Counted from the first letter of the stretch, positions 28,512 to 54,053 are shown. The stretch: 64,000 bases of DNA from a virus (IMGVR_UViG_3300045738_001212:1-64000), one strand, 5' to 3'. The notes: a model not told the origin generated them from the letters alone. Program-made: numbers and translations.

Positions 28512-28718
28512 ATGAGCGAGACCTACAATGACCCTTCTGATTCCACCCGTGTGCGCGAGCGTTGTGAAGACGCGCCGTGCTGCGGCTGCTGCGGCCCCGA
28601 TACCGTGGGCGGCTACGACCCCCAACCCTACGGCGGCTTTGAAGGCCAGTGGGCTGGTGACGGCTCCGGTTTGGATGACCTCGCGGACTTTAACGCGATG
28701 GAGGGCATGGATATGTGA
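28512..28718 (+). CDS. small acidic Cys-rich early protein (RCEDAPCCGCC), leaderless; start corrected
   Basis: TTGACG-N17-TATATT-N6-ATG. Confidence 0.75.
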   Translation: MSETYNDPSDSTRVRERCEDAPCCGCCGPDTVGGYDPQPYGGFEGQWAGDGSGLDDLADFNAMEGMDM

Positions 28719-28766
28719 ATAACTTTACCCTTGACAAGGGGACGTTCGTGTGTTAATATTATACCA

Positions 28767-28943
28767 ATGATGAACGAGACGACATTTGAAGTTAGCTGGG
28801 CCTACGGCGAAACCACCTTTATCAACGCCCGTGACGAGGCGCAAGCCGAGCGTATGGCCGCGCAGATGGGCAGAGCCCACGGGTTGGGCAAGGTCAAGTG
28901 GGTGCGTCACGCATCGCTGGACAAGGCAAACAGCGAGTTTTAA
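28767..28943 (+). CDS. small early protein (x-A-x-D/S-E-x-x-A family), leaderless; start corrected
   Basis: TTGACA-N17-TAATAT-N7-ATG. Confidence 0.7.
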   Translation: MMNETTFEVSWAYGETTFINARDEAQAERMAAQMGRAHGLGKVKWVRHASLDKANSEF

Positions 28944-29095
28944 CGACTTACCCCTTTAACTCGCCGCGAAGCGGTGAGTTAAGGAAGCCCCCGCACTTTT
29001 TTCAACTCAGTGCAACAAAAACATCTCAGGACAGATGCGCTTATTTCGTTCCGATTAAAATTTGCTATTTTCTTAATTTAAATTTGCTGAATTTG

Positions 29096-29557
29096 CTATT
29101 TTCTTAATTTGAAAAACTTATGTTTACCAACGATTTTTATAGGTGTGCTTGTGCGCGTCCAATAGTTGTGAGTGTTAACGTGACAGTAGTGGTCGGCATT
29201 GCCAACGTAGCTATGCTGTAAGTTGTTTATGTTTGTTGCAAGCATCTTTGCATAGGCCGCGTGTTGGTGCGTCTTTAATAGCGTGGGTAGTTTCTTTCTA
29301 TTAGGGTCACGCTCATCCCAACAAGAGAATTGCCATATCCTCTTACCCTTTTGCAAGCAGACTTGCTTTGCTGTTTTGTTTCTATTGATTACACGTTGAG
29401 CGATAACACAGGCCACGCCATACATACCGGCTTCGCCCTCGCCACGCGCTTCGCCTAAGATCGTCATGGCTACCACGTCGCGTTCGGTATACTCTTCGGC
29501 ACACAGCCCCATCAGTATAATAAAAAGCATGACAAAAAATATAAATCTAACGAACAT
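29096..29557 (-). CDS. cell-wall hydrolase (SleB/Hydrolase_2 family) with N-terminal hydrophobic segment
   Basis: TILGEARGE, VIAQR, QFSCW, ADHY, VGKHKF. Confidence 0.88.
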   Translation of the reverse strand: MFVRFIFFVMLFIILMGLCAEEYTERDVVAMTILGEARGEGEAGMYGVACVIAQRVINRNKTAKQVCLQKGKRIWQFSCWDERDPNRKKLPTLLKTHQHAAYAKMLATNINNLQHSYVGNADHYCHVNTHNYWTRTSTPIKIVGKHKFFKLRK

Positions 29558-29580
29558 AAATAATCCTTTTGTTGAATGTT

Positions 29581-29626
29581 AAAAGTAGGGTGACGCAAGG
29601 AGAGACCACTAACCTTGCGCCACCCT
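29581..29626 (-). terminator. terminator-like hairpin with 12-nt loop UUAGUGGUCUCU
   Basis: 14-bp stem with G-U on minus strand followed by ACUUUU. Confidence 0.75.
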
Positions 29627-29635
29627 GTTCTATGA

Positions 29636-30019
29636 CTACCACCAGCACGAGTAAACTATCTTCCACCCGCCAGCTAGTGCCTTCCTAGCCTTCTGGATGA
29701 ATTCGATGTCGTCATCCTTGTAGCCGTATTCACCTTCATAATCCTCATAGGAATCATTGCCGAAGAAGAAGCCTCCTGTCTCTGGTAGTTCCTTGTCTAG
29801 GATAGCTTGCTCTAGGCTGTCCAAATCCTCCTCGTCAATAGTTACATCAACAAGATTGAATTCTCCATCGCCACCCTTGCTGCGCCAAAGCTCTTCCATC
29901 CACCCTTGCAAGCGATTATGCTTGCGCCAGTAGTGAAGCTCCGTCTTGGTGATGGTGTCGGTGCGTGTGTCTGAATCGTAGTCAGACTTAACTTGATATG
30001 CTGTTTGGTCGAGTCCCAT
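29636..30019 (-). CDS. conserved phage protein (MGLD...YWRK.N.L..W...YSCWW type)
   Basis: recognisable motif; SD AGGAGA. Confidence 0.75.
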   Translation of the reverse strand: MGLDQTAYQVKSDYDSDTRTDTITKTELHYWRKHNRLQGWMEELWRSKGGDGEFNLVDVTIDEEDLDSLEQAILDKELPETGGFFFGNDSYEDYEGEYGYKDDDIEFIQKARKALAGGWKIVYSCWW

Positions 30020-30028
30020 AGTAATCTC

Positions 30029-30954
30029 CTAGTTAGTGGTTGCGGTTGGTAGTGGTGGTAGTGCCAGCGGTTTAGGTAGCGGTGGCAACGGTGGGAGGCT
30101 GGCCATGTAAGCCAATCTCTCTACTTCAGCGAATGAAATACTGAATTGCTTCTTTAAGATAGGCAGCGCAGCCTTAATCTTGTAGAGGCGATAGGCTTCA
30201 GCCTTTGCCTCCTCGTGGGTTGCGCCTTCCTTCTTTCGGGCTTTGATGTGGTTGGTTACTTCAGCAGCCTTGACTGCGTTGCGAGCTTGGTAGGTTTTGT
30301 ATGTCTTCATTGGTAAGAGTATGCCTGAATTTGGTGTTGGTGTCAAGTTTATTCCTATATGGTTACCGCTGAGAGGCCGTTGGCTAGGATGGGCCGCTTG
30401 TGCAACGGCGCGAACGAATTGATGCGATGCCAGTTGAATCGGCGGATGACGTTTTCATAACCGTCACGGCATACCGTAGCGACAAAGCCCCCGTTGCCCG
30501 AAAAGAAGAATTCGTCGGGCGTGAGGATGAGATAGTTTTCAGTCTTGCCGTTGGCCTTGGTGTAGTTGAGTTCGAATGCTTTCTTGGTGTATGTCATGGT
30601 TATAATATACCATGAAAGAGCCTCGTTGTCAAGCAGTTTCTCACAGTGTTTCAATGTAAATCCCTGTTGCCAGTATCACCACGAATGACACGATGCCAAT
30701 AATGAGAACAAAATAAATATCTCTGAAATCGTCTTTCATAATCCCTCCTTGATATAATTATGCGTTCCCATCTTTTCAATAAAATGAGTTTCAAGCATAT
30801 CAAATTGATGCATCGCCGTGCCTCTGTTGTTGGCCCATTCTAACGCCCTAAAGAGTGAACAAGCTTTTTGATAAGTCTCACACACTTGAGCCGCTGCTAT
30901 GTTTTGATGCACTGACGTTGGCACTACGTTTTGTTCTTTTCCGTTTTTGGTCAT
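30029..30954 (-). other. small early genes 30029-30310, 30355-30597, 30736-30954 (starts corrected by promoter position)
   Basis: leaderless promoters / translational coupling. Confidence 0.7.
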
Positions 30955-31064
30955 AAAGGTTTCTTGTGTTTAGGTTTCCGAGTGTAAGAGCCTTTGCCCT
31001 TCTTAACGCGATGCTCACGGGACGCGCTGCCCATGTAGCCCTCTTTGTTTTTCCGCGCTTTCAT
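30951..31064 (-). CDS. 37-aa ArfA-like ribosome-rescue peptide (not in ORF track): MKARKNKEGYMGSASREHRVKKGKGSYTRKPKHKKPL
   Basis: KKGKGSYxRKxKH motif as in ArfA; own leaderless promoter; ATGA coupling to next gene. Confidence 0.75.
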   Translation of the reverse strand: MKARKNKEGYMGSASREHRVKKGKGSYTRKPKHKKPL

Positions 31065-31082
31065 AGTGATAATATACCACTG

Positions 31083-31189
31083 AAACGTCTCACTGTCAAG
31101 GATAAACCACCCAACCCGCCGCGTAGCGGTGGGTTGTTTTAGCTTGCACTGAGATAAAAAATCTGCGGGCGTTTTTCTGACTCACTGTC
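31083..31189. repeat. about 107-bp exact direct repeat (second copy about 33151-33257) containing promoter -35 box, hairpin and 35-bp dyad
   Basis: aaacgtctcactgtcaaggataaaccacc...ctgactcactgtc identical in both. Confidence 0.92.
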
Positions 31190-31194
31190 AAGCC

Positions 31195-31617
31195 TTAAAC
31201 TACAGCCCAGCACCGATGCCCCACGAAACAATACGCTGATTTGGCGATGGGACGTTTCTCTTTTACCGTCACAAAAGTCTTATGCTTGTAAGGGTCGTAA
31301 GTCACCTCCACCCACTTGCCATCCACAGCCATCGTCTTCGCTTGCTTTAGCATCTCTTGAGGGGAAATCATATTTACAACAGGGCGATGCCCGGTATACG
31401 TAATCCACTTACCGCGCACGTAGGCGTGTACGTTCTTACGCATCTCATCCCGGACGCGATCATTGCCCTTGGCACCAACGACGAATTCAACATCATGCAA
31501 CAGAATACCTCTCACATGTTTGGCCACTAGGCCATCGTGTCGGGTACGCACCGAGTAAACCCGATCCGTCTTGTCTCCCCTGTGCAGGTTCCTGTAAACG
31601 TCTACCTTGCTTTTCAT
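31195..31617 (-). CDS. conserved phage protein (VYRNLH...KNVHAYV.G...YDPY type)
   Basis: recognisable motif. Confidence 0.7.
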   Translation of the reverse strand: MKSKVDVYRNLHRGDKTDRVYSVRTRHDGLVAKHVRGILLHDVEFVVGAKGNDRVRDEMRKNVHAYVRGKWITYTGHRPVVNMISPQEMLKQAKTMAVDGKWVEVTYDPYKHKTFVTVKEKRPIAKSAYCFVGHRCWAVV

Positions 31618-31997
31618 TAGTCTACGTTCTCCATGTCGTCGTGCATCATATTCTCAAGCTTGCCAATCTTGTCATCGCTTAACCCCGCTCGCCAATCATC
31701 ATCATCATATTCATTCTCCTCCTTCTCCCAGCGGTATCCCTCTGGCGGCATGATGTGCCACAAATCATTCGCCCTTGCCTCGCCTATGATGTAAGGCTTA
31801 ATCTCTTCCATTGAAACGTCGCCCCATTCATTCTCAACACCCATAACGTAGCCGAAGGCTATGCCGTTTTCGTCTGGCTCTCCCAGATAATACTCCCACA
31901 TATTCCGAAGGATGATGTGCTGGTGAACGGTGAACGCGCTGATGGGTAAGGTGCGGTTGTTTATGGGGACTATGTTTCTAGGTTTTGTAGGTTTCAT
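31617..31997 (-). CDS. DUF2958-like protein, leaderless
   Basis: WEYY...FGYVMG.E.EWGDVS.EEI. Confidence 0.55.
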   Translation of the reverse strand: MKPTKPRNIVPINNRTLPISAFTVHQHIILRNMWEYYLGEPDENGIAFGYVMGVENEWGDVSMEEIKPYIIGEARANDLWHIMPPEGYRWEKEENEYDDDDWRAGLSDDKIGKLENMMHDDMENVD

Positions 31998-32861
31998 TAG
32001 GTATAATGTAACACTTTAGAGGCCGCTTGTCAAGCGGTTTTTTGAGTTTCGACGCCGAACATCTTCTCACCGCGACCCACCCACGAAGGGCCGTCAACGA
32101 GCCACGACGCTGTGCCAGTATCCGACAAGCAAGCTACCGTCGGGCTTTCAATTTCCCCTTCCGTTAAGCCACAGGCGGCCTTGAAGCGGTCAACGTCAAA
32201 ACGCGGGTTGTCCTTGGCAAACTGGGTTGCGGCTAGTGTAGCCAGCACAGCGGCGGGTGTGCCGTTGTTGGCTGCGTTGATGAGGGCGGCGACGAATTCG
32301 AAGTGTTCTTTTGTTGTTTTCATTAGGTATAGTCTAACGCTTTAGAGGCCGCTTGTCAAGCTTTTTATCTGCATCGTTCAATGTCCTTTTCTCTTTTTAG
32401 CTCCGCCTCTTCTTCGTGGGTGAAAAGTCTGCCGAGGGTGATTGACTCAATCTCAAGGCCGATCTTGCTACCGAAATACATATCCCGCACGTTAGCGAAT
32501 GAGGTTCCGGTTGCGGCCCAGCGTGTGCCATTGGTTGTGGTTACGATAAAATCGGTTGTTTCTTTTATGTCTTTCATTAGGTATAGTCTAACACTTTAGA
32601 GACCGATTGTCAAGGATAAAGTTGTCCCCCCGCGCAAGCGGGGGGGGGTTAGCCTAGACCCCCCTGTGCGCTTCCACACAGGCCACCTCTTTAGGGAAGC
32701 CCTTGCGGAGTAGTTCAAGATTGTTGCTGTCAGCCTTACGAATAAGGCGCAACAGTTTAGCGGTGAACCAACTACCCTCTCCACAGAGGATGTTGCCGAT
32801 GTTGTTTTTGTCGTAGTTACTCATTGGGTATACTGTAACACTTTAGAGGCCGCCTGTCAAG
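31993..32861 (-). repeat. four near-identical promoter+ATG cassettes (CTTGACA.GCGGCCTCTAAAGTGTTA...TATACCTAATG)
   Basis: upstream of ATGs at 31997, 32323, 32577, 32824. Confidence 0.9.
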
Positions 32862-33431
32862 CACCAAGTGCGTCCCACGGGTCTACGGGTGCGTTGGGTT
32901 CCTCGTTCCGTTTCATCCAAGGGGTGCGAAGTAACTCCTCCCATTCGCTTGAGCCAACAGCGTCATGATACGCAGCGCGTACTAGCGCGTGGTGGCCGCT
33001 CATTCTCCAATCCCAATCGTTCATATCCTTTGACTTGATAGTGCTGGTCTTGCCCTCTGGTGAGACATAGGTGAACACATGGTTGTTGGTCTTGCGGTTA
33101 GAGTAGAGTAGAAACTTTTCTTTACCTTCCATACGTATAATGTACCACGCAAACGTCTCACTGTCAAGGATAAACCACCCAACCCGCCGCGTAGCGGTGG
33201 GTTGTTTTAGCTTGCACTGAGATAAAAAATCTGCGGGCGTTTTTCTGACTCACTGTCGCATGGCCACGCTTACCACGCATGGGGCCACACGCCGACTATT
33301 TCGCTATTTGGGTGATCGCCTAAAGCGTGAGTCTTGGCTACCGTAAGGGTCATGCCCCAGTAAGAGGCTTCGTAATAGCTGCCCGATGTGAAATTCCGGG
33401 TTCTGATTGTCCAGTTAGATGTTTCGCTCAT
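32030..33431 (-). other. single-gene leaderless units: 32030-32323 (DNPRFD motif), 32365-32577, 32654-32824 (56 aa, unlisted), 32857-33132, 33270-33431 (53 aa, unlisted)
   Basis: each has its own promoter immediately before ATG. Confidence 0.75.
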
Positions 33432-33691
33432 GGGTATAATGTAACACGAAAAACGCTACCTGTCAAGGAAAAACAGTGAGGCTCAAAAAATGCTGCCGCT
33501 TTTTCAACTCACAATCAATTAGGTCAATTAATCACGTTTATATAGGGTAATTGTTTCGCAAGGCACCCCAGTAAAACAGATATTTAGATGATAAGAATTT
33601 CCTATTTACCCCTGATTTCTCCGATGAGAAATACCCCCTTTTTAAGAAATTATATGTTGACAGATAGGCTATTTGGTGGTATAGTATTCTT

Positions 33692-33818
33692 GTTGGTGGC
33701 AATGGTAGCCCTCGCTGAATAAGTGAGTGCCCTCGCAGGAAAGCCCCTAGTGGAAGCGCGACGAAGCTAGACGGTGATACGATACTGGAGGGGTGAGGTT
33801 CAATCCCTCGCACCAATA
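33692..33818 (+). ncRNA. tRNA-like (tRNA-mimic) structured RNA, about 125 nt
   Basis: promoter TTGACA(33657)-N17-TATAGT; acceptor stem GTTGGTG/CACCAAT; D-loop-like AATGGTA; T arm TGAGG-TTCAATC-CCTCG. Confidence 0.75.
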
Positions 33819-33825
33819 ACAATTT

Positions 33826-34023
33826 ATGATGAACGACAAATGTAAATGTGGAGGTTGTGGTGCGCCCGTAGCGTGGGAGTACGACGCCCCTTATCAGGAG
33901 TACCCCGGCGCGAAGGTGTGGGGCGGGGAATGGTTCGTCGAGTGCGAGAAATGCGGGTGGAGCGATGCCACCAAACAAGACTTGAGCCATTACTCCATAC
34001 GCGAGAACACGCGGGGGTGGTGA
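33826..34023 (+). CDS. small zinc-finger protein
   Basis: CGGC...CEKC; stop codon is the first triplet of a 35-bp dyad. Confidence 0.65.
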   Translation: MMNDKCKCGGCGAPVAWEYDAPYQEYPGAKVWGGEWFVECEKCGWSDATKQDLSHYSIRENTRGW

Positions 34024-34148
34024 GTTAAGAAAGCCCCCGCATTTTTTTCAACTCAGTGCAAGCCTTTTCTTTTGTCGATCACGAGTGATCGTCTAAATAG
34101 TTTGTCAATCATATTTCCACTATTTTGATCGTCTAAATTTGCTAAACG

Positions 34149-34179
34149 AAAAGCCCCCCCGCTTGCGCGGGAGGGCTTT
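34149..34179. terminator. intrinsic terminator after DUF932 gene, possibly bidirectional
   Basis: GC stem with GCAA loop flanked by A/T runs. Confidence 0.8.
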
Positions 34180-34199
34180 GGTTCTTCACCCCTTGGCTT

Positions 34200-35093
34200 T
34201 TAGTTCAGAGCCAGCTTGACCACTTCAGAGGGAACGGCCTTGACCAGCTTGTCAAGCTTGGCGGATTGCTCCGCAGCACCCCGCAGCTTCCGCAGCACCT
34301 TGGTGCTAACGGTGTTGGCGTACTCGAAACGCTCCCTGCTCACGTCATGGGTGAGGTGTTGGGTGGCTGCGTTGTAGAGTGTCCACAGATTGCGGGCTTC
34401 GTCTTCCTCGCGGGCGGGATTCTCCCACACCTTGAGGATGCCGTCCTTGACCACGTTAGACAGCACCTTCGAGCGGTTCAACTGGTCGAGGATGTTGCGC
34501 CCCTGCTCTTGCGTGATGTCACGCTCGCCCAAGATGCTGAAGCCTTGCGCGGCTTCGTTGAAGCTTCCGGTGGCTCTGTCGAGAGCGTCCCCGATAAAGC
34601 TAATCTCTACCGCTGCGGTATGACGGCGATTCATGCCGAACTCATTCTCCAAGGTGGTCATGCCGTTGAGGCAAACCAGCCGCACCATGCCAAGCGCGAA
34701 GGATACGCGCAGGGAACGGTCAAAGGAGTTTTGCAGGGTGAGGCGCATTCCTAATTCCATGCCCTTCACTCTGTCCTCGCGCCGTGTGGCGATGGCCGTC
34801 TCATTCGCGAAGTCGTACTGCGCGAACATCTTCTCGCCGCGACCAGTCACGACAATGTGGCGGCTTGTGGGAACCATCCCGCGAGACTCAAAAGCCTCTT
34901 CGGCATTGGCAATCAAATCACCGTTTTGCACAAAGCCGTACTGCTCCGTGCCCCAACCTAATTCCTCGCCCGTATCGGTACGGACGTGCGCGTATACGCG
35001 GGAGCGGTTGCTGTTGGGAAGGGTAAGGGGGACACGCTCCACGGTGTAATCGAAAGCGGTGGGGTCGGAGGTTTGAATAGTGTTTCTGGCCAT
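34200..35093 (-). CDS. DUF932/DUF945-family protein
   Basis: VRTDT...Y..VQN, NSFD.S, RLVCLNGM, RHT, NLWTLYNAAT. Confidence 0.85.
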   Translation of the reverse strand: MARNTIQTSDPTAFDYTVERVPLTLPNSNRSRVYAHVRTDTGEELGWGTEQYGFVQNGDLIANAEEAFESRGMVPTSRHIVVTGRGEKMFAQYDFANETAIATRREDRVKGMELGMRLTLQNSFDRSLRVSFALGMVRLVCLNGMTTLENEFGMNRRHTAAVEISFIGDALDRATGSFNEAAQGFSILGERDITQEQGRNILDQLNRSKVLSNVVKDGILKVWENPAREEDEARNLWTLYNAATQHLTHDVSRERFEYANTVSTKVLRKLRGAAEQSAKLDKLVKAVPSEVVKLALN

Positions 35094-35315
35094 GATTTGT
35101 AGGTCTTTCTTGGTTAAGGGTTATCTCTCACTCACTACAAAGAGTGTATCACCAATCCACTATCCTGTCAAACCTTTTTTTCTGTCATTGGATACAAACC
35201 CGCCGCGCAGCGGTGGGTTTGGGCTTGCACTGAGTTAAAAAATGTGCGGGCGTTTTTACGACTCATTCCCTCCGTTAACCCATCCCTCCGGGCTGGGTTT
35301 ATATTTACACGCTAT

Positions 35316-37603
35316 TTAACTCTCATTCTTTTGCTTATTGCTAAACGGCGAAATCGACTCGGCTCCGCGCAAGTGATGCCGGATACCTAGTTCCACCTTA
35401 TGTTCAGCAGTATAGTCCCAATCGTCTTGGTCAAGGCTATACTCTGATTGGTATGCTGCCTCCATGTTGAAATTGAAATCACATAGAGTCGTGTCGTCAG
35501 TAAGGTTATGCTTCTGCACATACTCACTCAATGCCTCTGCGATAATCTTTATACGCAAGGGGTCGCCTTCAAGTATCATCTCATGCTCTTGTATCTTCAT
35601 TTATCCTCCAATCTCTCGTGTTCTAAAACATCATACTTATTAGCGTCGTCGAGGGTATAACCGTATTCCAGTTGACAGTCGTCTCCATAGTCTCCCTCCC
35701 CACTCATTGCCGTCTTGATAGCGTCGGCCTCATCCTCTGCCTCTACCACGATGTAGCAGTAGTGAACCTCTGGAACCTTAACTGTGAATGTTTTCATTTA
35801 TCCTCCAATCTCTTAAACTTGTCTACTATGATATCACAAACATCTTCCGTAATGGATTGCTTCTCTTCGTCTGTGAACGTGAATGGTGGGGTGTAGCCCT
35901 CCATGTATGTAATCACATCTTCCTGTAGCTGCTCCTTCACCTCTTTAATGACAAGGGATTGCGTGTGCTGAAATGGTTTGCGTAATGTTCTCATGCTTAA
36001 TCCTCCACTCCGTAAATTTCTTCGTAGTGTTCAATAATCTCATGGTCGTCTATGTTATCCATGCCAACGCAACCTTCCCAAAGGACTTGTTTCAAATCCT
36101 CGTCTGAAAAGCCCTCCCATTCAGATTCAAAAAGACGCTCGCGCATCGCTTGAATTTCTTTATCTGTATATTCTTTTACTGTGTCAGTCATAATTTAATC
36201 CTCCAGTAGATGGTCTTTGGCTGCTTCAATTACCTCTTGGTAATACTCGTTGTCCATTGGCTTAAAGCCTTCGAGACAATCTGAAATGGCGCATAGGCCA
36301 TCGACTATTCTGCTTCTGTCCACCATTCTCCCATTGTGGCTAATTGGGCCTTCATCTTGTTTCATGCTGTGATGTACTCTCCTTCCTCATTGAATACGAG
36401 TTCGAGATGTTTCAACTCCCAAGCGTTAGGTGCGTCCTTGAACCATTGGGTGTCCATGAACTTAATCCATGCGCGAGCGTTAGCGTGGGTGTAGGAAATG
36501 CCATCTGCAAACATCACATAGCTCTCATCCCATGTGTTGTAGAAGGTGGCCGTGTAGGCTTTCATTGTAGGTTTCATTACAAGTAATATACCACACCGGA
36601 GCGTGGTTGTCAAGGACTATTCGCTTAACGAGATTTGGTGGTCGCTCTCGGGAATGTTTACCTTTGAGATGTTTTCCTCCCACCTTTGATTCTCAAACAT
36701 GTTGGCGACGGCTTTTGCTACATCTTCTTTTGAAACGTCAGAGAAATCCCTTTTAGGTGTGCTGCCTAATACCTCACCCCAAGGGACATTGATTCTCCAC
36801 CCGACTGCTAAACACTCATGCCATACACCCTTCACGCAAACGTAATCACCCACCATCATTGAGCGAACTTCGAGCTTCTTAAAGAGGGTACACTCCCGAC
36901 CACTCCCGTTGTTCCAATCCTCCCACACCGCGTCAAGGATGTCTGGGTCTGTGTACTCACGCCCCTTGCTGTCCTCTACTGGGTAGTCCAACCAGAACTT
37001 CTTACATTGCTTCTCGGTCATGTCCCGATATTGAATTTTAACTCTTATCATAATCGTTTGCTCCGTGGGTGTAGGTTTCGCTCATAGATATAATGTAACA
37101 CACAAGGTACTACTTGTCAAGAGGTTTCTTCTTAATCATATCCAGTAACTTCTTATCGCACACGCGGGGGTGCTTTCCCCACTTCTCAACTACGTCTGCC
37201 ACCTGCTCACCCTTCTCATAGTCGGGTAGCTTAACAACGTACATGGAGTCACGGTCTCTTAACGTCTCATTGTATACCACGATCATCGGGTCGTCTGAAA
37301 GACGAGCCGATTGAATAGCCTCCTCCTCGGAGTTGGCATCTACGATATAGGTAGCCGAGTGCATTTCAGTTGTTATGACTTTATACTTCATGCCCAGTCC
37401 CCCTGTGAGTCTCCATCTATACCGTGCCTTTGGCATAGCTCATCCCATTCTGTCTCCTCGTAGCGTGACTGCCTTGATTGAGTGTCAAGTGCTACTTCTT
37501 TTAAGTGATTGGTAAGTTCTCCTACATCCTCGAATTGGATGCGAACGATCTTCTCCATTGCCTTGTCTAGTGCTGCTCCATGTAGGTTTCTTGTAGGTTT
37601 CAT
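35316..37603 (-). other. run of small acidic early genes: 35316-35600, 35597-35797, 35794-35994, 35997-36191, 36362-36577, 36617-37051 (RSMMVGD, YodL-like motif), 37110-37391, 37388-37603
   Basis: coupled stops/starts with GGAGGA embedded in ...ED(K)* C-termini. Confidence 0.7.
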
Positions 37604-37705
37604 TACAAAGACTATACCCTACTTCTACCCCCGTGTCAATATCAAAGTTTTTTAAAGTTTTTAATTGCACTGAGTTAAGAAATGTGCCCCCGCTTTTTTA
37701 ACTCA

Positions 37706-38242
37706 CTACCTTGTGATGGGTTTGCTGCACTGTTGACATCGATATTTGCGCCCACGCCTAATCCTATTATGTATTGTCGTGGATATCATATGAGGTCTAT
37801 CAATACAGCCACAGGTGTATTTCCACCGTCTCTGTTTCTTAGTGGATGAGTTCGTGGTATCATAGTTGTGACACCTATCAGGACGTAAGCCAAGCTTACG
37901 CATTACGTTCTTCCATTCGCGCCCGTGCGCCGTGCCACCGAATAGGCAATCTTTAATTAGGTGCGCGTACTCATGGCCAAGCGTTTGCTTTATAAAATGC
38001 TCGGTGTTTTCTTTTAAGAGAATGTAGTTTATTCGTATTTCGTTTTTATTAGAGTTTGCCGTTCCGGCCACCCTGCCTTTCAAGTTAAAGCGCAGCCTTG
38101 TCTCTGGCATACTATGCTTAAACTTTTTCTCTGTGTACTCGTGCAACTCCCTTATTCTATCCTCACACAAACGCACAAGGTCAGCCGTCCTTGGCGCGGC
38201 CAGCCCTGATTCCGTCTCTGTGAAATGTTCTATGATGATCAT
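37706..38242 (-). CDS. SprT-family zinc metalloprotease
   Basis: AGTA, HEYAH, HGREWK, YTCGC, YRCQQC. Confidence 0.9.
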   Translation of the reverse strand: MIIIEHFTETESGLAAPRTADLVRLCEDRIRELHEYTEKKFKHSMPETRLRFNLKGRVAGTANSNKNEIRINYILLKENTEHFIKQTLGHEYAHLIKDCLFGGTAHGREWKNVMRKLGLRPDRCHNYDTTNSSTKKQRRWKYTCGCIDRPHMISTTIHNRIRRGRKYRCQQCSKPITR

Positions 38243-38300
38243 TGTTTTCTAGATATCCAAATGTAGCCGAGCCAAAGTATAACCGCTATGAGTACCCACA

Positions 38301-39098
38301 TTATACAGCCTCCATTTGTTTGCGCTTGCTGTAGCCGTTCCACCCACGCCGTTTCAGTTCCTGTAGTGCTTGGCTTGCTGCGCTACCCTTTGGCTGTGTG
38401 CCGTGAATGAGTAAGGCAAAGCTCTTTGTGCCGAATGCTGCGTGGTAATCATCGTGGTCAATTTCAAAGTCCATTGCATCAGCTTGTTCCTCGCTGTAAA
38501 CTACCTCCGCGTACTTTAGGCCATGCTCGACAATCAGCGCGTCATGCTTGCCACCGTAGGAGGCGGTAAGCGCAAAGTTTGAAGGGATTGAATCAATACG
38601 CGCCACCCAATACTTTAGGCTTTTCGTGTATGCGTAAAAATGTTTGTCAGGCATACGCCGCGCAACTTCAAGCCATGCGTCAAAATACGCTTGATTGAAA
38701 AAGTCACCGCCAACATGGACACGCATGATATCAAATTTTTTGGGAAGCATCGATTCCAGCAAATCAGCAATGGCTTTCACTTGGTCTTTGTCATAACGCC
38801 ATGCGTCCATCATCACTTCTTTAATTGCCTCAAAATTACGCCACACCATTGCGCGAGTGTTTTTGTACTGTGATTCAGAGCTTGCGGCGAAGCAACGAAA
38901 TTCCGTGTCAGGCCCATCCGTGATTTTACCCGTTTCCCTGTTGGCCTTGGATAAGCATTCTTTGGCGGCGGGACAAGTCCACCCACTAGGCAAAGTGAAG
39001 GATTTAATAGTTTTGCCGAGCCGGTTTGCCATCGCGATAAGCTTGGCGTTGGCTTGTGAGAATGTGAGAGTCAAAGGTTTAGTCGTAGTAGGTTTCAT
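38301..39098 (-). CDS. Gp88-like protein (Cys motif, RVHVGGDF)
   Basis: LPSGWTCP..C...CFA, RVHVGGDFF, FYAYTKS. Confidence 0.8.
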   Translation of the reverse strand: MKPTTTKPLTLTFSQANAKLIAMANRLGKTIKSFTLPSGWTCPAAKECLSKANRETGKITDGPDTEFRCFAASSESQYKNTRAMVWRNFEAIKEVMMDAWRYDKDQVKAIADLLESMLPKKFDIMRVHVGGDFFNQAYFDAWLEVARRMPDKHFYAYTKSLKYWVARIDSIPSNFALTASYGGKHDALIVEHGLKYAEVVYSEEQADAMDFEIDHDDYHAAFGTKSFALLIHGTQPKGSAASQALQELKRRGWNGYSKRKQMEAV

Positions 39099-39135
39099 GG
39101 TTATAATATAGCAGGTTTCGCTGTGTCTGTCAAGG

Positions 39136-40403
39136 TTAAACGCCTATAAAATGCGCTGCGGTTTTCTTCGTCCAAAAGCCGTCGGCATCTATATTCCCAC
39201 CGTTACTCGCTCGCCCACCATTGCCCACGGGAATGGGAGCAACACTATACTCGCCCATGTTTGAATGTTTAATGAAGGGTTCGGAAACTAAACTGTTGAA
39301 CCTTAAACGCGCAAGTAGTCGAGCGTATCGCCTAATCTTTTCCTTGAGCTTGTTTCCGAATTTGCCTAGTAGGTAGGCGAGGGATGAGTTGTAAAGATAC
39401 TTCTTATAGCTTTCCTCTGTCGTCCAGATGTAAGCGAACCTCTCAGACATATGAATCAACTCGCCGTTGTAGGCTCCGTGGTTGTACCAACTGAAATCTT
39501 GTGATTCGATTTCCTTGGGGTCATTAGATTGGATACCAACGGCCCAGCTTGAGCCTTGGGGACAATAGAACAGTGAGGGTTTCTTTCTAGGTTTCATATG
39601 TATAATGTAGCATAAAAAAGTCCCCCTGTCAAGGGGGACTTTCAGTGTTAGGCCGAGGCTAAACCTTTGCCGTAGTCGATTAAGTCGAGGTCGTGCGTTG
39701 CCGCAGCAGTCGCGTCAGTGATGTCCGAGAATTCGAATATCTCAATCGCTGGCAAGTTGTTGCCGTACTTTCCCTCTGGGAGGTCTGAATACTTTGGCAC
39801 TACGGCCTCGCGGAGAAGGGCGATCTTCTTTAGGTCATCTCTGATGAGTTGGGCCTCCATTCCGTCATTGCCGAGATTATGCTCGTCGATTCTTGTCTGT
39901 GCTTCTGCGACATCTTTTTCAAGTCGCACGATATGTTTGCCGAAGGCAATCTCTAGTTTGTTATTCATCTAGAACAATGTACCATCGATTACCCTGTTTG
40001 TCAATTAAAATCGATTAAAACTTTTTAAAATTTTCCGCTTGTAGTGAGTGAAAAAATGTGCCGCCGTTTTCTAAACTCATTGCAAGAAAAAAAGCCCCCC
40101 CGAAGGGGAGCCTCTCATGAACGGTTATTTAACCTTTATTTATTTGCTTATTATTTACGGCTTATTTATTTGCCAATTATTTAATTAATATTTATTTGCT
40201 AATTATTTAATCATTTCATCGCTTACATCGTCCTCTACTATTGCCCAGTCTACTTCCCATGAGCCTTCTACATATGTTCCATTGTCTGGTAAGCCTATGC
40301 CCATGTCCGACTCTGCTATCTCAGCAGCGTGTTGGCGCGTGTCCGACTTAACAGTTACCCAACCATACATCTGCCAAGCTACTGGTACTTTGTATTCTTT
40401 CAT
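39136..40403 (-). other. hypothetical early genes 39136-39597, 39648-39968, 40203-40403
   Basis: ORFs with leaderless promoters or coupling. Confidence 0.7.
40087..40113 (-). terminator. intrinsic terminator (UUCG loop, U7)
   Basis: ggctcccc-ttcg-gggggc-ttttttt on minus strand. Confidence 0.75.
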
Positions 40404-41372: not shown

Positions 41373-41410
41373 GTATAAAGCATACCATTAATCTAGTATG
41401 CTGTCAAGGA

Positions 41411-41915: not shown

Positions 41916-42056
41916 ATAAGAATAATAACCGAAATCTACTCCCCTGTCAAGATTTTTTTAAAGAAAAGAACAAGCATAAAAACAATAATACTAATAAATA
42001 AAAATGAGATGTATGCTATTGTCAACACCCCTATATAGCAGCCCACCACTATCTCT

Positions 42057-43569: not shown

Positions 43570-43993
43570 ATGGGTAATTACACAATGCTACCAACTTTAT
43601 TATAGGTATATTTTGGAGAATATATAAAAAGCGGTCACCCATTTTTTTAAATTTTAATAAACAAATTAACCACTCTCTTCTTTGTATACTATGCCCTTTA
43701 GACCTCTTTTACTAGGTTTTCGGGGGGAAAGTGGGGCAAAGGTGTAGGTTTCTGTGGAGTAGGGGGATTGTAGGCAAGTAGTAGGACAGCGTAAACCAAA
43801 CAAAAGCCTTTTGCAATGCAAATAAACAAAAAAATGCGTTGGACGAAACAATTACAGGCAATGTTGTCTAAATCATCCCTCCTGCTTAACCCCTATCAAG
43901 ACGAGAAGCATCTCAATAGTAACAGGCATTGTTTCTGAGTCCGATGCCAACGCTCACCGTCGATTAGTTAGGGATAATAGTTGCGACAAAAAG

Positions 43994-51085: not shown

Positions 51086-51617
51086 TTTTTCTTTTTGGTT
51101 TTCTTCGCCTCCTTGGCGGCTGTTTCGTACTTTATATTCTCTCGCAGTTCTGACTTGGGGCAGTATGCCCAACCATCGCTAAGTAAATTTCTTAATTGCT
51201 TAAATGATTCTTGGTACTTGCCTTCTGAGTCTGCCTCTTTGGCGATTTCTCTCATGGTGAACCATTGGTTTGGCAGCGGTGATATTTTGGTATACTTTTT
51301 TCCTTTTTTTAGTGTTTTCATAAAGCCTCTAAATACTCTAACTCCTTTTCTACGTCTTCTGGTTTAAGCCATCCCTTCACTTGGTCATGCCAAGCTTCAA
51401 TTTCCATCATCTTTTCACCGCCAGCATAGAACGCCCCCATTTCAAACAACCCTTTTTCGTGACCATAAGATGATCCATGCCTCACCACTGATACTTCAAT
51501 CCCATTGGAAAGAGCCGTGTACGCTTGGCAGGGATCAGCAAGCCATCCACCCTCTACCTTGTAGGACTTCCCGTATGCCTCGTCCATCGCTTCAAATTCT
51601 AGATTGTCAAATTTCAT
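51082..51617 (-). other. two small hypothetical genes (51082-51321, 51318-51617)
   Basis: coupled ORFs; SVVRH..SYG...GLFE motif in the second. Confidence 0.65.
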
Positions 51618-51651
51618 ATTTTTTTTAAAATTTTAATTGCGTCATCCAACT

Positions 51652-51733
51652 AAAAGAAGGAGACGGGGGAAGCAACCTACTCGCTCCCCCCGCCTCTAGA
51701 ATGCCCCACCGGAAACCTACTAACGATGAGGCA
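51652..51733 (-). terminator. tandem 3' hairpins of rIIA-like gene with AGUAGGUU loops; second is a terminator
   Basis: 10- and 14-bp stems with G-U pairs on minus strand, U-rich tail. Confidence 0.8.
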
Positions 51734-51739
51734 GATTGT

Positions 51740-53923
51740 TTACTCATCGCACTCATCCAACTTTTTCATATAGTCGCAGAGCGCATTTAAAGCGTCTTTC
51801 CCTTTGTCTTGACGCGCATTGTAGCTGCTAGTGTCAACATGAATTACCAGAGGATAATCCTTTTCCACTTCGTCTGCAAGCTTTTTTAAGGACGTATCCT
51901 GCTTGCCCTTTGCTTTAGGAATTTCAAATCCCCAATCTCTAGCGTTCATTCTGATCTGCTCCACCTTTGTACGAATCTCTTGAGATTCGCCGTACTGTCG
52001 CTGAACAGAAACGTAAGGATGCTCACTTCCGAGAAGTTTTTCAGCCAAATCTAACTCTTCAATTCTGTGATTCCATTCGTGGAGGAACCAGTCTCTTTTC
52101 CCTTCGCTAGATTGGGATGAAATACGATCCAGTTCGGAAAGATTTTCTTCTTCGACAACCTCCGAAAGGTTATCAGCTACCCACTCATGCAACTCCACCC
52201 AATTAGGATTGTCCTTGAGCTTCTTGGATTCTGCTTTTGTGAAACCGTGCAAGGTGTCGGGCATTTCGATTTTATGCTCTTTCAAATACTTTTCGACTCT
52301 CTCGTAAGGCTCGTCAAATTTAACAGGCTCGTCGTAGGGGTAGTCCTGTTCTGGACGCTGAACCTTGTAGCGGTTAATCACCACGTACACGCCTTCATCC
52401 TCATCCACGTCAACCTCTGCCGCCACCCAACGATCACGCCACTTGCCCCATCTGTATCCAGATTTATCCCAAGTGAATGTCTTGTGAGTAGTCCGACCAT
52501 ACGATACTCCGTTGCCAACCCTCTTCGGAGGTTTCGGTAAACCGTCCAAAGAAATCGTTTCCACGTCGAAACCCATCTCTTTGCAAATTTGCTTTTCGGT
52601 TTTGGGTTTGTCGCCGCCGTTAGTCACGCTGAGTACCTTGTCAAAAGTGACGAGGTAAACTTTACGCCCCTCTTCCTCCTGTTGCAGGGTAACGATCTTA
52701 CCCAACGCAAGACGGAAATGTCCAACGTCATTCTTTACCACTACAACTTTGTCGCGGCATTCTATATTGGTTGTCTCCCTAAAGCGTAAATTACCAGCGC
52801 GAGTTTTCTTTAGACAACGAATGTTTACGTTGTTGTACTTGTAGAAGTTGTACTTACCATCATCAATCTTCTTACCGTTGAACGTGATGTTCTCCCGCGC
52901 CCAAGTTGACAACTCGTAGAGACTGCTACCATAGTCGCAAATCTCACCGAGCAAACTCTTGGCGTCAAACATGGTGTTGCAACCGTTGAATTTTTTCTCG
53001 ACTTCATCCTTCAACTCCTTGCTCACTTTTTTGATTTTAGTGATGAGAGCTTTCTTGGTGATGTCGGTAAGTTCAAGAGCTTCACGACTTGCCGTGATGT
53101 TCAACTCACCAATTTCAAACTCTAGAATAAGATGATCGTTTACGATTGACCTTGCTGGATCATCCCTGTCCAAATCCAAGTCATAAGCATCCCACTCGTA
53201 AGGAATCCCGCCCATGACCGCAACAGGATTGTTACCGCTCTCTTTAAGATACTTCCAATCGCTACCCTCAAACAGCGTCTCAACCTTAAGCCCATCAAGT
53301 TCGTGGTCTTCAAGACCATGAATAACTGGCTTCACCTTGAAATGTTTGAACAGGTTAATCGACTTACTGATAAACTTATCTATGTCTGCCTCTCTGACGG
53401 GAATGATAATCTCCAAACCGTCCTTCTCATCAGTTGGGCTTGCGACGAGCTTGGCAATCTGTCCGATTTTGGTTTCATCAATATAAGCGGTGTAACTATG
53501 CCTCTCACCGTCAATGTAAGAATTGATTACAAAACTGTCACCGTAAGCAAATCCTGACTTGGAACCGAGTCCGAGCATACCAATCTGTGCATTGGAATTG
53601 CGCTTCGTTGACTCCCCATACATCGCGTAAACTTCCGCAATCTCTTCCTCGTTAAGTGCGGGGCCAAAATCACGGACAATAAAAGACGGATCAAAAACGC
53701 TAGGCATGGTGACTTCAATCGGTAAGTCTTCTTTCCCTACTTCCCTGTTAGCGTCGATGGCGTTCGCCGTGTACTCTCTAACTACTGCTAAGATTTTGTC
53801 AGAGTAAAGTTGGTTGCGGAGAACATTTAGAATGTGAGCGAGTCCAGTTTGTTTGATTCCAAAGGAGACGGCCTTGGTTATGCCTTGGCTCTGGATTTCG
53901 ATGGGGTCTTCAAGAATTTTCAT
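51740..53923 (-). CDS. rIIA: rIIA-like protein (GHKL ATPase N-terminal domain)
   Basis: LYSDKILAVVREY..NA.DA, VRDFG, YGESTK, GMLGLGSKS.FAY. Confidence 0.9.
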   Translation of the reverse strand: MKILEDPIEIQSQGITKAVSFGIKQTGLAHILNVLRNQLYSDKILAVVREYTANAIDANREVGKEDLPIEVTMPSVFDPSFIVRDFGPALNEEEIAEVYAMYGESTKRNSNAQIGMLGLGSKSGFAYGDSFVINSYIDGERHSYTAYIDETKIGQIAKLVASPTDEKDGLEIIIPVREADIDKFISKSINLFKHFKVKPVIHGLEDHELDGLKVETLFEGSDWKYLKESGNNPVAVMGGIPYEWDAYDLDLDRDDPARSIVNDHLILEFEIGELNITASREALELTDITKKALITKIKKVSKELKDEVEKKFNGCNTMFDAKSLLGEICDYGSSLYELSTWARENITFNGKKIDDGKYNFYKYNNVNIRCLKKTRAGNLRFRETTNIECRDKVVVVKNDVGHFRLALGKIVTLQQEEEGRKVYLVTFDKVLSVTNGGDKPKTEKQICKEMGFDVETISLDGLPKPPKRVGNGVSYGRTTHKTFTWDKSGYRWGKWRDRWVAAEVDVDEDEGVYVVINRYKVQRPEQDYPYDEPVKFDEPYERVEKYLKEHKIEMPDTLHGFTKAESKKLKDNPNWVELHEWVADNLSEVVEEENLSELDRISSQSSEGKRDWFLHEWNHRIEELDLAEKLLGSEHPYVSVQRQYGESQEIRTKVEQIRMNARDWGFEIPKAKGKQDTSLKKLADEVEKDYPLVIHVDTSSYNARQDKGKDALNALCDYMKKLDECDE

Positions 53924-54053
53924 AGGTTTCAGTTTCTTTTGTTGGTAGGTTAATCTCTAATGCTATTAAGAGTATACTCTCGTTCTCTTTTCGAGTCAAG
54001 AGTTTTTTTTCATTTTAAAGTTTTTATGAGTGTTCATAAGTGTAATTCTTTGT

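What the first reader, a model, noticed from the sequence alone, without database searches (positions are those of the whole stretch)
28512..53950. Frame-independent (G)AAACCUAC tag at 5' ends of early mRNAs
Seen: unrelated genes begin ATG-AAA-CCT-AC (MKPT: 31997, 36577, 37603 with two copies, 39098; MKPR variant 39597) or ATG-AGC-GAA-ACC-TAC (MSETY: 41372, 37085; GAG variant 28512). The motif also occurs at codons 5-7 of 30310 and untranslated in the leaders of DUF932 (AGACCTAC) and rIIA (AACCTAC, GAAACCTATG). Conservation in two reading frames and in UTRs indicates a nucleic-acid signal rather than a peptide. Inference: a shared handle for co-regulating the early regulon (initiation enhancer, protein operator or sRNA seed target).
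Basis: partly seen in the sequence, partly recalled or inferred. Interest (0 to 1): 0.75.

Follow-up and report, generated by a model that had tools for sequence, protein, structure and literature searches.

The report
Shared mRNA tag matching rIIA hairpin loops
About ten early genes of this marine phage start with the same 9-base tag, which exactly complements loops of two conserved RNA hairpins after the rIIA gene, suggesting one RNA controls the whole gene set.

Summary
AAACCTAC (true unit GAAACCUAC) is the most enriched 8-mer in the first 30 nt of the phage's early transcripts: 8 copies in 7 of 24, against 0.03 expected. It occurs in all three reading frames and in untranslated leaders, so it is a nucleic-acid signal.

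Two points go beyond the finding. Tagged genes sit behind near-consensus sigma-70 promoters with ATG 6-7 nt after the -10 box, so most are predicted leaderless mRNAs. The tag's exact complement lies in the loops of two hairpins just after the rIIA stop codon.

A relative with 87% identical rIIA keeps both loops although 7 of 10 hairpin-1 stem pairs changed. In phages with ~40% identical rIIA, the sequence at rIIA's start codon and the loop changed together (AAAUCCUAC/GUAGGAUUU; AGUCCAUUA/UAAUGGACU).

Best reading: an old rIIA 5'-3' RNA pairing was extended to about ten early genes here, probably blocking their start codons. Pairing and its effect are inferred; no RNA data exist.

Earlier AI notes of this scan describe similar tag-plus-antisense-loop layouts in two unrelated phage groups, with other sequences.

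`look-up of encoding contigs` was closed, so the 57-83% rIIA relatives could not be fetched.

The parts
41358..41366 (-). Tag GAAACCTAC at +7..+15 of the predicted leaderless RuvB-like AAA-ATPase mRNA (ATG at 41372)
   Evidence: The tag is conserved in orthologs G004, G005, L091 and L100 while codon 2 varies (AGC, AGT, ACT). G003 has the variant AAATCCTAC.
39086..39096 (-). Tag GAAACCTACTA at the 5' end of the GP88-family gene (ATG at 39098); 11 contiguous complements to the hairpin-1 loop
   Evidence: duplex -14.8 kcal/mol, the best of all 5' ends. The tag lies in an N-terminal extension that is absent from orthologs L009 and L010.
37582..37601 (-). Two tandem tags 11 nt apart at the 5' end of a 71-aa gene (ATG at 37603); the second copy is in a third reading frame
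37071..37079 (-). Tag in the leader of the gene starting at 37051 (15-codon mini-ORF from 37085, then GGAG and the real ATG)
   Evidence: The ortholog in G005 (L004:7755) has no ATG before the tag, so there it lies in a true 5'UTR about 5 nt after the predicted TSS.
36554..36575 (-). Tag plus a degenerate second copy (GAAAGCCTAC) at the 5' end of a 71-aa gene (ATG at 36577)
   Evidence: The ortholog in L003 keeps the tag although the promoter is absent there.
31978..31995 (-). Tag plus a second near-copy (AAACCTAG) at the 5' end of a 126-aa gene (ATG at 31997)
   Evidence: Its promoter spacer is nearly identical to those of three untagged neighbours (32323, 32577, 32824), so the tag is not simply inherited with the promoter cassette.
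30290..30307 (-). AAGACATAC followed by AAAACCTAC at the 5' end of a 93-aa gene (ATG at 30310)
   Evidence: The ortholog in G004 has two perfect tandem AAAACCTAC units, and G002 and G003 also carry the tag.
28518..28526 (+). One-mismatch tag GAGACCTAC at the 5' end of a divergently transcribed predicted leaderless gene (ATG at 28512)
   Evidence: duplex -13.1. Paralogs in G005 read ATGAGTGAAACCTAC three times.
43744..43752 (-). Tag inside a conserved C-rich non-coding element; a second near-copy (AAAACCTAG) lies about 30 nt downstream
   Evidence: The element is conserved in G004 (two perfect tags) and G005. A weak promoter-like site lies at 43795-43767. Its function is unknown.
53921..53951 (-). 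rIIA start region: AACCTAC at 53951-53945 and GAAACCTA at 53930-53923, which runs into the ATG (53923-53921); no Shine-Dalgarno
   Evidence: Its 8-nt complement lies in the hairpin-1 loop. None of 64 rIIA start regions in the clade has an SD-like 4-mer.
51740..53923 (-). rIIA gene (727 aa), with its promoter at 53999-53971
51702..51733 (-). Anti-tag hairpin 1: 10-bp stem with three G-U pairs and a 12-nt loop UUAGUAGGUUUC (loop at 51723-51712)
   Evidence: (z = -4.1 for the region). In L050, 7 of 10 pairs changed (3 compensatory) while the loop is identical. The same large-loop hairpin occurs after rIIA in L084, L091, L093, L100, L101 and L157.
51660..51696 (-). Anti-tag hairpin 2: 16-bp terminator-like stem, GUAGG in the loop (GAGUAGGUU including the closing pairs), followed by a U-rich tail
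   Evidence: In L050 the loop is UCGUAGGUUU.
27078..41950 (-). Cluster of about 22 TTGACA-N17-TAnAnT promoters, each with ATG 6-7 nt after the -10 box (predicted leaderless early mRNAs); two more lie on the + strand at 28477 and 28731
   Evidence: The same layout is found in G001-G005.
35099..35106 (-). One-mismatch tag AGACCTAC in the leader of the DUF932 gene (ATG at 35093)
   Evidence: duplex -10.6. This is a weak member.

Best explanation
GAAACCUAC is an RNA-level address placed at or next to the start codon of a set of early mRNAs. Most of these mRNAs are predicted to be leaderless, so the tag begins at the third base of the transcript. Its partner is the rIIA 3' untranslated region, which folds into two hairpins whose loops (UUAGUAGGUUUC and GAGUAGGUU) are the tag's complement. 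The second hairpin also looks like the transcription terminator.

Loop-to-tag pairing, by the full rIIA mRNA or by a stable 3' fragment of it, would cover or abut the AUG. It most likely lowers translation of rIIA itself and of the tagged early genes as rIIA transcripts accumulate. That would be an RNA-based early shut-off or dosage control.

The pairing is ancient for rIIA, as self-regulation, and for the AAA-ATPase. In this phage's lineage the tag spread to about ten genes.

Shown: the enrichment, the frame independence, the complementarity, the hairpin covariation, and the co-variation of tag and loop between phages.

Inferred: physical pairing, action in trans, and the sign of the effect. 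I put repression over stabilisation at roughly 2:1.
For: 1. Position and frame. There are 8 copies in 24 leaderless 5' ends against 0.03 expected. The tag occurs in all three frames and in true leaders. Codons are fixed although CCT and ACC each make up only 27% of their synonymous sets (p about 6e-4 and 3e-4).

2. Partner. Both plus-strand AACCTAC copies at 51674 and 51714 fall in loops of two hairpins just after the rIIA stop. The fold scores z = -4.1 and hairpin 2 scores as a terminator.

3. Hairpin covariation. In L050 (rIIA 87% identical), 7 of 10 hairpin-1 pairs changed, 3 on both sides, and the loop is identical. Ten such hairpins from eight phages (the window, L050 and six viral-contig loci) have perfect 10-bp stems that are 42% identical pairwise, with an invariant loop core.

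4. Tag and loop co-vary.
- G003: loop GUAGGAUUU(CUU) against rIIA leader AAGAAAUCCUAC (12 nt; 1 of 300 shuffles) and the AAA-ATPase +10 AAAUCCUAC. These are the only three copies of that 9-mer in 68 kb.
- G001, L089, L090: UAAUGGACUG against CAGUCCAUUA abutting the AUG.
- L086 and L159 show further classes.
- 16 of 68 rIIA loci reach shuffle p <= 0.05 and 8 reach p <= 0.01.
- Tag and anti-tag co-occur (Fisher p = 8e-5), and the orientation controls are nearly empty.

5. Specificity. On the rIIA-sense strand of 80 loci, 14 of 16 anti-tag 9-mers lie within 110 nt after the rIIA stop. Seven early 5' ends pair with loop 1 at <= -12.7 kcal/mol, the top 0.1% of the genomic background.

6. Start-codon accessibility is a main determinant of leaderless initiation (PMC8459731). 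3'UTR pairing to an mRNA's own start region represses icaR (PMC3868564).
Against: - There is no transcript data. TSSs, the 3' end and any processed fragment are all predictions.
- The host is unknown, so Hfq or RNase involvement cannot be assessed.
- The contigs of the tag-rich relatives G002, G004 and G005 do not reach rIIA. L050 has the loops but not the early region. Co-occurrence of an expanded tag set with the loops is therefore seen in one genome only.
- G003 carries AAACCUAC copies as well as AAAUCCUAC, so its co-variation is partial.
- In G000 the rIIA self-match is only 8 nt (42 of 300 shuffles).
- The co-occurrence and shuffle statistics are not corrected for shared ancestry.
- 7 of 17 tagged rIIA starts lack a detected anti-tag within 85 nt of the stop.
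- A 9-bp loop-to-linear duplex is short, and its effect could be activation or protection rather than repression.
Confidence: 0.6

Rival explanations
1. The tag is mainly a cis-acting translation or stability element for mRNAs without a Shine-Dalgarno. It would be bound by the ribosome, protein S1 or another host or phage factor. The rIIA loops would matter only for rIIA itself, or would act as a competitor or decoy for that factor.
For: The tag always lies within about 15 nt of an AUG. In several genes it occupies the SD position (rIIA; G005 9998 and 15566; L085 13733). None of 64 rIIA start regions has an SD-like 4-mer. SD use in the phage is weak overall, 26% against a 13% background. The sequence is G-free and CA-rich, which favours an unstructured 5' end.
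Against: A composition effect does not need an exact 9-mer. Other phages use quite different sequences at the same place (AGUCCAUUA, GAACUGAA), and each is matched by its own loop, which argues for complementarity rather than one fixed protein or rRNA site. At +3..+11 of a leaderless mRNA the tag would sit inside the ribosome's mRNA channel, where rRNA pairing is unlikely (general knowledge; not tested). Most leaderless genes here (17 of 24) lack the tag.
Confidence: 0.2
2. The tag is a DNA-level signal: an operator for a DNA-binding protein just downstream of the TSS, or an initial-transcribed sequence that tunes promoter escape from very strong promoters.
For: The distance from the -10 box is fixed (+4 or +8). 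Tandem copies are spaced 9-11 bp apart, about one helical turn (37603, 31997, L003:10186). The CCTAC cluster at 43.75 kb has 11-bp spacing.
Against: In L003:5356 the tag is kept where the promoter is absent. It also occurs just upstream of ATGs far from any promoter. The complementary copies sit in RNA hairpin loops whose stems need G-U pairs and co-vary. In G003 a one-base insertion appears in both tag and loop, which is natural for pairing and awkward for a protein site. Strand bias is 13 to 3.
Confidence: 0.07
3. The tag is a passenger. It would be copied together with promoter cassettes during module shuffling, or be a short shared N-terminal peptide, with no function of its own.
For: Promoter-plus-ATG cassettes are duplicated in this region: four nearly identical spacers lie at 31997-32824. 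Promoters come and go between relatives.
Against: Tagged promoters have unrelated spacers, and only one of the four near-identical cassettes is tagged. The tag occurs in three frames and in non-coding sequence. It is retained in orthologs across deep divergence while adjacent codons change. The complementary loops are conserved.
Confidence: 0.05
4. The 5' and 3' copies are short inverted DNA repeats flanking rIIA, acting as ends of a mobile or invertible DNA segment, so they co-vary because one recombinase reads both.
For: Inverted repeats at both ends of one gene that change together between phages are also what transposon ends look like.
Against: The 5' copy lies between the promoter and the ATG, so the promoter would be left outside the element. 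The 3' copy is always in a loop of a co-varying RNA hairpin. rIIA is syntenic. Extra tags at other genes have no inverted partner.
Confidence: 0.03

Closest known systems
icaR mRNA 5'/3'-UTR pairing in Staphylococcus aureus (PMC3868564); also the hbs 5'/3'-UTR interaction in B. subtilis (PMC5737220)
   Same: A short motif in the 3'UTR of an mRNA is complementary to that mRNA's own translation start region. In icaR the pairing blocks initiation and creates an RNase III substrate.
   Different: Here the target is not a Shine-Dalgarno but a private tag next to, or just after, the AUG. The 3' motif is presented in hairpin loops, often twice. The same loops match about ten other mRNAs, most of them predicted leaderless. 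None of this has been tested experimentally.
3'UTR-derived trans-acting small RNAs of bacteria (review PMC7821165)
   Same: An accessible seed lies upstream of the mRNA's own terminator hairpin and U-tail, and several mRNA targets are paired at their start regions.
   Different: The element is phage-encoded and the targets are the phage's own early genes. The seed sits in a large hairpin loop rather than a linear 5' seed. Processing and chaperone dependence are unknown.
P1/P7 c4 antisense RNA (Citron & Schuster 1990, cited in PMC8198154)
   Same: A phage RNA made from the same transcription unit as its target. From my own knowledge, not checked here, c4 is reported to use two exposed regions that pair with two sites around a start region to block expression.
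   Different: c4 is an immunity function of a temperate phage with one target operon and lies upstream of its target. Here the element lies at the 3' end of rIIA in a large lytic-type phage and addresses many unlinked genes.
Start-associated sequences (SAS) of Cluster K mycobacteriophages (PMC3203893)
   Same: A phage-private, asymmetric short motif in one orientation, attached to the starts of a subset of non-structural genes from unrelated families. The authors left open whether an RNA or a protein reads it.
   Different: SAS is a 13-mer that contains the SD core and lies 3-7 bp upstream of the start. The tag here has no SD, mostly lies just after a 5'-terminal AUG, and has an identified complementary partner.
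T4 RegA and RegB post-transcriptional control of early mRNAs (review PMC3014915)
   Same: Proposed outcome: coordinated post-transcriptional down-regulation of many early mRNAs through a short element at the start region.
   Different: RegA and RegB are proteins. No RegA-family match was found in this genome, although the control search was uninformative. Here the proposed effector is RNA.

Membership tests
mRNA 5'/3'-UTR self-pairing (icaR type) | The 3'UTR motif is complementary to the start region of the same mRNA | tested here: met
   G000 8 nt, G003 12 nt, G001 10 nt. In each case the match abuts the AUG at one end and lies in a hairpin loop after the stop at the other.
mRNA 5'/3'-UTR self-pairing (icaR type) | The complementarity is maintained by co-variation among relatives | tested here: met
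   At least five sequence classes keep the complementarity. 16 of 68 loci reach shuffle p <= 0.05. Tag and anti-tag co-occur, Fisher p = 8e-5.
mRNA 5'/3'-UTR self-pairing (icaR type) | Pairing inhibits initiation or triggers RNase cleavage | not testable with these tools
   This needs toeprinting, reporter assays or RNase assays.
3'UTR-derived trans-acting sRNA | Accessible seed plus an intrinsic terminator with a U-tail at the 3' end of an mRNA | tested here: met
   12-nt loop in hairpin 1. Hairpin 2 scores as a terminator, with the tail CUUCUUUU.
3'UTR-derived trans-acting sRNA | Several mRNA targets are complementary at their start regions | tested here: met
   Nine 5' ends reach <= -10 kcal/mol and seven reach <= -12.7, the top 0.1% of the background. 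All sites of 9 nt or more that match the GAAACCTAC core on the early strand lie at 5' ends or in the intergenic element; one 10-nt site at 30980 that includes stem bases is internal.
3'UTR-derived trans-acting sRNA | A stable processed 3' fragment exists in cells | not testable with these tools
   There is no transcriptome for this uncultured phage.
Leaderless mRNA | The TSS coincides with the A of the start codon, or lies within 1-2 nt of it | tested here: inconclusive
   Predicted only. About 24 promoters have ATG exactly 6-7 nt after a TAnAnT -10 box. The layout is conserved in relatives. No TSS mapping exists.
Start-associated sequences (Cluster K) | The 13-mer GGGATAGGAGCCC, containing the SD core, lies 3-7 bp upstream of the start | tested here: not met
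   The sequence is different and has no SD core, and most copies lie downstream of the AUG (PMC3203893).
PeSL promoter-early stem-loop cassettes of T4-type phages | The motif is part of a mobile promoter plus stem-loop cassette | tested here: not met
   The tag is independent of the promoter-spacer family: one of four identical cassettes is tagged. It persists where the promoter is missing. It is not part of a stem-loop.
Rfam RNA families | A match to a curated covariance model | tested here: not met
   No hit in the whole window at gathering threshold, and none at E <= 1 on 51500-51900.
T4 RegA translational operator | The phage encodes a RegA-family protein (PF01818) | tested here: inconclusive
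   No match in G000, but the control genomes gave no signal either.

The most novel reading that the evidence does not exclude
A whole clade of marine rIIA-bearing large phages uses the rIIA 3'UTR as a twin-loop regulatory RNA. It began as rIIA self-control. In some lineages it became a master post-transcriptional switch for a private regulon of leaderless early mRNAs, each addressed by a 9-nt tag that starts at the third base of the transcript. This would be an RNA counterpart of the T4 RegA/RegB early shut-off. Together with the analogous layouts noted in two unrelated phage groups, it would point to a general phage strategy of 'private tags read by an antisense loop'.
Probability: 0.35. Interest if true: 0.85.

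Novelty: new variant of a known kind. Interest (0 to 1): 0.75.

Why it matters
- It would be the first case I could find of a phage controlling a set of its own early, leaderless mRNAs through loops in the 3'UTR of another early gene. The held literature showed nothing similar.
- It gives a simple, testable rule: tag plus complementary loop, with natural compensatory variants already supplied by related phages.
- It suggests a role for the unusually conserved non-coding sequence after rIIA.
- It shows that a T4-like marine phage can express most of its early genes without leaders or Shine-Dalgarno sites.
- It also offers a compact orthogonal tag-and-antitag pair for controlling leaderless translation.

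Tried and rejected
- Megablast of the early region against cultured phages found nothing. The nearest cultured rIIA is only 27-30% identical, in Phaeobacter and Aeromonas phages, so the host stays unknown.
- The twin anti-tag pattern scan of viral contigs returned 12 hits, all chance or low-complexity. L056, L060 and L065 looked promising but are unrelated, with no leaderless promoters.
- The promoter-plus-tag scan of 185,579 bacterial genomes returned 8 scattered singletons with no taxon standing out. The tag is therefore not a cellular signal and gives no host clue.
- L002, L005 and L006 from the viral scan are single hits. L005 and L006 have 55-62% GC and are probably chance.
- The cross-pair null (5' region of one phage against the 3' region of another) was contaminated because relatives share tags. 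I replaced it with tight windows and shuffles.
- MAFFT put the hairpin stems in shifted registers, so `count of structure pairs` was not used. I counted pairs outward from each loop in a script instead.
- The idea of a 16S rRNA 'downstream box' could not be tested without a host.
- The RegA family search was uninformative.

Full report
**1. Observation**

AAACCTAC occurs 12 times in the window against 2.25 expected, and no shuffle reached 12. Eleven of the copies are on the minus strand.

In the whole 157,997-bp genome there are 16 copies on both strands. Eight of them lie within +4..+33 of 24 predicted leaderless starts, where 0.03 are expected (Poisson P about 1e-17). An unbiased k-mer count makes it the top 8-mer there, about 250-fold enriched. 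The remaining copies lie inside long ORFs at the chance rate.

**2.

Each tagged gene sits behind a near-consensus promoter, TTGACA-N17-TAnAnT, usually with TG before the -10 box. The ATG follows exactly 6-7 nt after the -10 box. About 22 such promoters lie on the minus strand between 27 and 42 kb, and two more lie on the plus strand near 28.5 kb. These mRNAs should therefore start at or one base before the AUG. The same layout is seen in relatives G001-G005. This is a prediction, because no TSS data exist.

**3. Nucleic acid, not peptide**

- The tag is read as K-P-T, as (E/K)-T-Y, and, for the second copy in the gene at 37603, as R-N-L-H. That covers all three frames.
- At 37085 the 'MSETY' ORF has only 15 codons and overlaps the real start at 37051, which has GGAG upstream. 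In the G005 ortholog there is no ATG before the tag at all. There the tag lies about 5 nt after the predicted TSS in a true leader.
- In other genes the tag lies directly upstream of the ATG in the Shine-Dalgarno position: rIIA, and G005 9998 and 15566.
- Codons are fixed although CCT and ACC each make up only 27% of their synonymous sets (p about 6e-4 and 3e-4).
- In the AAA-ATPase the codon before the tag drifts (AGC, AGT, ACT) while GAAACCTAC stays, even in phages whose rIIA is about 35% identical.
- In GP88 the tag forms an N-terminal extension that orthologs L009 and L010 lack.
- The tag is not inherited with the promoter cassette. Four promoters share a nearly identical spacer and only one is tagged, and tagged promoters have unrelated spacers. 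In L003 the tag persists where the promoter is missing.

**4. The partner**

An earlier unchecked note (e1-5731302) said the rIIA 3' hairpins carry the antisense of the tag, and I tested this. The two plus-strand AACCTAC copies at 51674 and 51714 lie, on the mRNA strand, in two hairpins directly after the rIIA stop.

- Hairpin 1 has a 10-bp stem with three G-U pairs and a 12-nt loop, UUAGUAGGUUUC.
- Hairpin 2 has a 16-bp stem with GUAGG in the loop and a U-rich tail, and it scores as an intrinsic terminator.
- The region folds better than all 200 shuffles (z = -4.1).

The true tag is the 9-mer GAAACCUAC. Its leading G is the last base of AUG in the MKPT class and the G of GAA in the MSETY class, which explains why both frames share it. 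Loop 1 pairs with seven early 5' ends at <= -12.7 kcal/mol, the top 0.1% of the genomic background. It pairs with nine at <= -10 kcal/mol, out of 38 promoter-proximal segments. At rIIA itself the match GAAACCUA runs into the AUG.

**5. The hairpins are selected RNA structures with a selected loop**

In L050 (rIIA 87% identical), 7 of 10 pairs of hairpin 1 differ, three of them on both sides. The loop is identical, and hairpin 2 keeps GUAGGUUU in its loop.

After the rIIA genes of more distant phages (34-44% identity), strong GC hairpins present UUAGUAGGUUU in 12-14-nt loops. Ten such hairpins all have perfect 10-bp stems that are only 42% identical pairwise, with 3-5 pair types at each position, around an invariant loop core. 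On the rIIA-sense strand of 80 loci, 14 of 16 anti-tag 9-mers lie within 110 nt after the rIIA stop, where 0.1 are expected. Rfam has no matching family.

**6. Tag and loop change together**

| Phage(s) | Loop after rIIA | Matching sequence | Notes |
|---|---|---|---|
| G003 (rIIA 39%) | UUUGUAGGAUUU | AAATCCTAC | Three copies in 68 kb (0.5 expected): the loop, the rIIA leader (12-nt match; 1 of 300 shuffles) and the AAA-ATPase 5' end |
| G001, L089, L090 | UAAUGGACUG, overlapping the stop codon | CAGUCCAUUA abutting the rIIA AUG | |
| L086, L159 | other sequences | other sequences | Complementarity kept |

With tight windows, 16 of 68 loci reach shuffle p <= 0.05 and 8 reach p <= 0.01. A tag at the start and an anti-tag after the stop co-occur: 10 loci have both, 7 the tag only, 4 the anti-tag only and 43 neither (Fisher p = 8e-5). 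The reversed-orientation controls are nearly empty. These statistics are not corrected for shared ancestry.

Relatives without the hairpins show no complementarity (L001, L051, L054). Many phages have two anti-tags and two tags flanking the AUG.

**7. Evolutionary picture**

rIIA self-complementarity is widespread in the clade. The AAA-ATPase is a second old target. G001 has only the rIIA site. The window's lineage (G000, G004, G005, G002) has many tagged genes: 16, 8, 14 and 3 copies against 4.8, 0.8, 0.9 and 1.0 expected. Nearly all are at 5' ends on the transcribed strand. A conserved C-rich non-coding element at about 43.75 kb also carries tags, and its role is unknown.

**8. Mechanism**

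The best-supported reading is RNA-RNA pairing between the rIIA 3'UTR loops and the tags. For a leaderless mRNA the duplex would begin at the third nucleotide. For rIIA it covers the A and U of the AUG. Start-codon accessibility is a main determinant of leaderless initiation (PMC8459731), and 3'UTR pairing to an mRNA's own start region represses icaR (PMC3868564). On that basis I favour repression, meaning self-limitation of rIIA and a delayed shut-off of the tagged early genes. Protection of 5' ends, as described for hbs (PMC5737220), remains possible. Whether the full mRNA or a processed 3' fragment acts is unknown.

**9. Rivals**

- A cis-acting enhancer for mRNAs without SD fits the position next to the AUG and the weak SD use: 0 of 64 rIIA starts have an SD-like 4-mer, and 26% of the phage's ORFs do against a 13% background. 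It does not explain why other phages use different sequences, each matched by its own loop.
- A DNA operator or initial-transcribed-sequence effect is disfavoured by tags that are kept without promoters, by the G-U-dependent co-varying hairpins, and by the shared one-base insertion in G003.
- Hitch-hiking with promoter cassettes and a shared peptide are disfavoured by section 3.
- Inverted DNA repeats acting as recombination ends are disfavoured by their placement and by the unpaired extra tags.

**10. Comparison with known systems**

The mechanism resembles icaR-type 5'/3' pairing and 3'UTR-derived sRNAs (PMC7821165). It resembles the P1 c4 antisense RNA in being made from the same transcription unit as its target (PMC8198154). 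The gene-start motif resembles the start-associated sequences (SAS) of Cluster K mycobacteriophages, whose reader is still unknown (PMC3203893). It is not a member of SAS or of PeSL cassettes, because their defining features were tested here and not met.

Literature searches found no phage case of a 3'UTR loop addressing leaderless early mRNAs. Earlier AI notes of this scan report analogous tag-plus-antisense-loop layouts in two other phage groups (e1-5906018, e1-5855669). I did not check those.

**11. Limits**

- The phage is uncultured, the host is unknown and there is no RNA data.
- The tag-rich relatives lack the rIIA region, and L050 lacks the early region.

Noticed in passing
window 27078-41950 (-) and 28477-28770 (+): About 24 near-consensus sigma-70 promoters have ATG exactly 6-7 nt after the -10 box. 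Most early genes of this T4-like marine phage are therefore predicted to be leaderless. The layout is shared by relatives G001-G005.
   Followed up: partly
window 31997-32860 (-): Four unrelated one-gene units share a nearly identical promoter spacer (agcggcctctaaagtgt). Only one of them is tagged.
   Followed up: partly
L003:5330-5360 versus window 36577-36625: The ortholog of the gene at 36577 lacks the whole promoter. The junction falls right after 'agcgaatagt', yet ATGAAACCTAC is kept. This is a clean promoter-cassette insertion or deletion between close relatives.
   Followed up: no
window 43700-43830 (-): A conserved non-coding C-rich element (CCACAGAAACCTACACCTTT..CCCCACTTTTCCCC) has CCTAC repeats at 11-, 11- and 15-nt spacing and two tags. 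It is conserved in G004 and G005. It could be a decoy or sponge for the anti-tag loops, or a leader.
   Followed up: partly
window 42860-43170 (-): An array of GAGGATTA(A/C)AACA repeats lies downstream of a TTGACT/TATACT promoter. Other notes of this scan discuss it. I found no link to the tag.
   Followed up: no
64 rIIA loci (L084-L163, G000): None of the 64 rIIA start regions has an SD-like 4-mer at -18..-5. SD use in G000 as a whole is weak (26% of ORFs against a 13% background).
   Followed up: partly
one search hit list (P0032, P0099): Some 38-40% rIIA homologs come from bins named Bacteroidetes or Crocinitomicaceae. This could be a host hint for part of the clade or a binning artefact. 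The TTGACA/TATAAT promoters here do not look like Bacteroidetes promoters.
   Followed up: no
L093:8290-8345: Four tandem AAACCTA-like units surround the ATG of a gene 6 kb downstream of rIIA in a distant relative (rIIA 35% identical). Multi-copy tags therefore exist outside the window's lineage.
   Followed up: no
L112, L121, L122, L145 (rIIA 3' regions): A CA-rich class: the rIIA starts read CACAACACC..CACACCATG. UGUUGUG follows the stop and UGGUGUG lies in the terminator loop. Each match is short (7 nt, p about 0.13) but the pattern recurs.
   Followed up: partly
window 51604-51631 (+): A promoter-like site (TTGTCA-N16-TAAAAT) points antisense into the rIIA 3' hairpins. A plus-strand RNA from it would carry sense tags, but hairpin 1 would lose its G-U pairs on that strand.
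   Followed up: no
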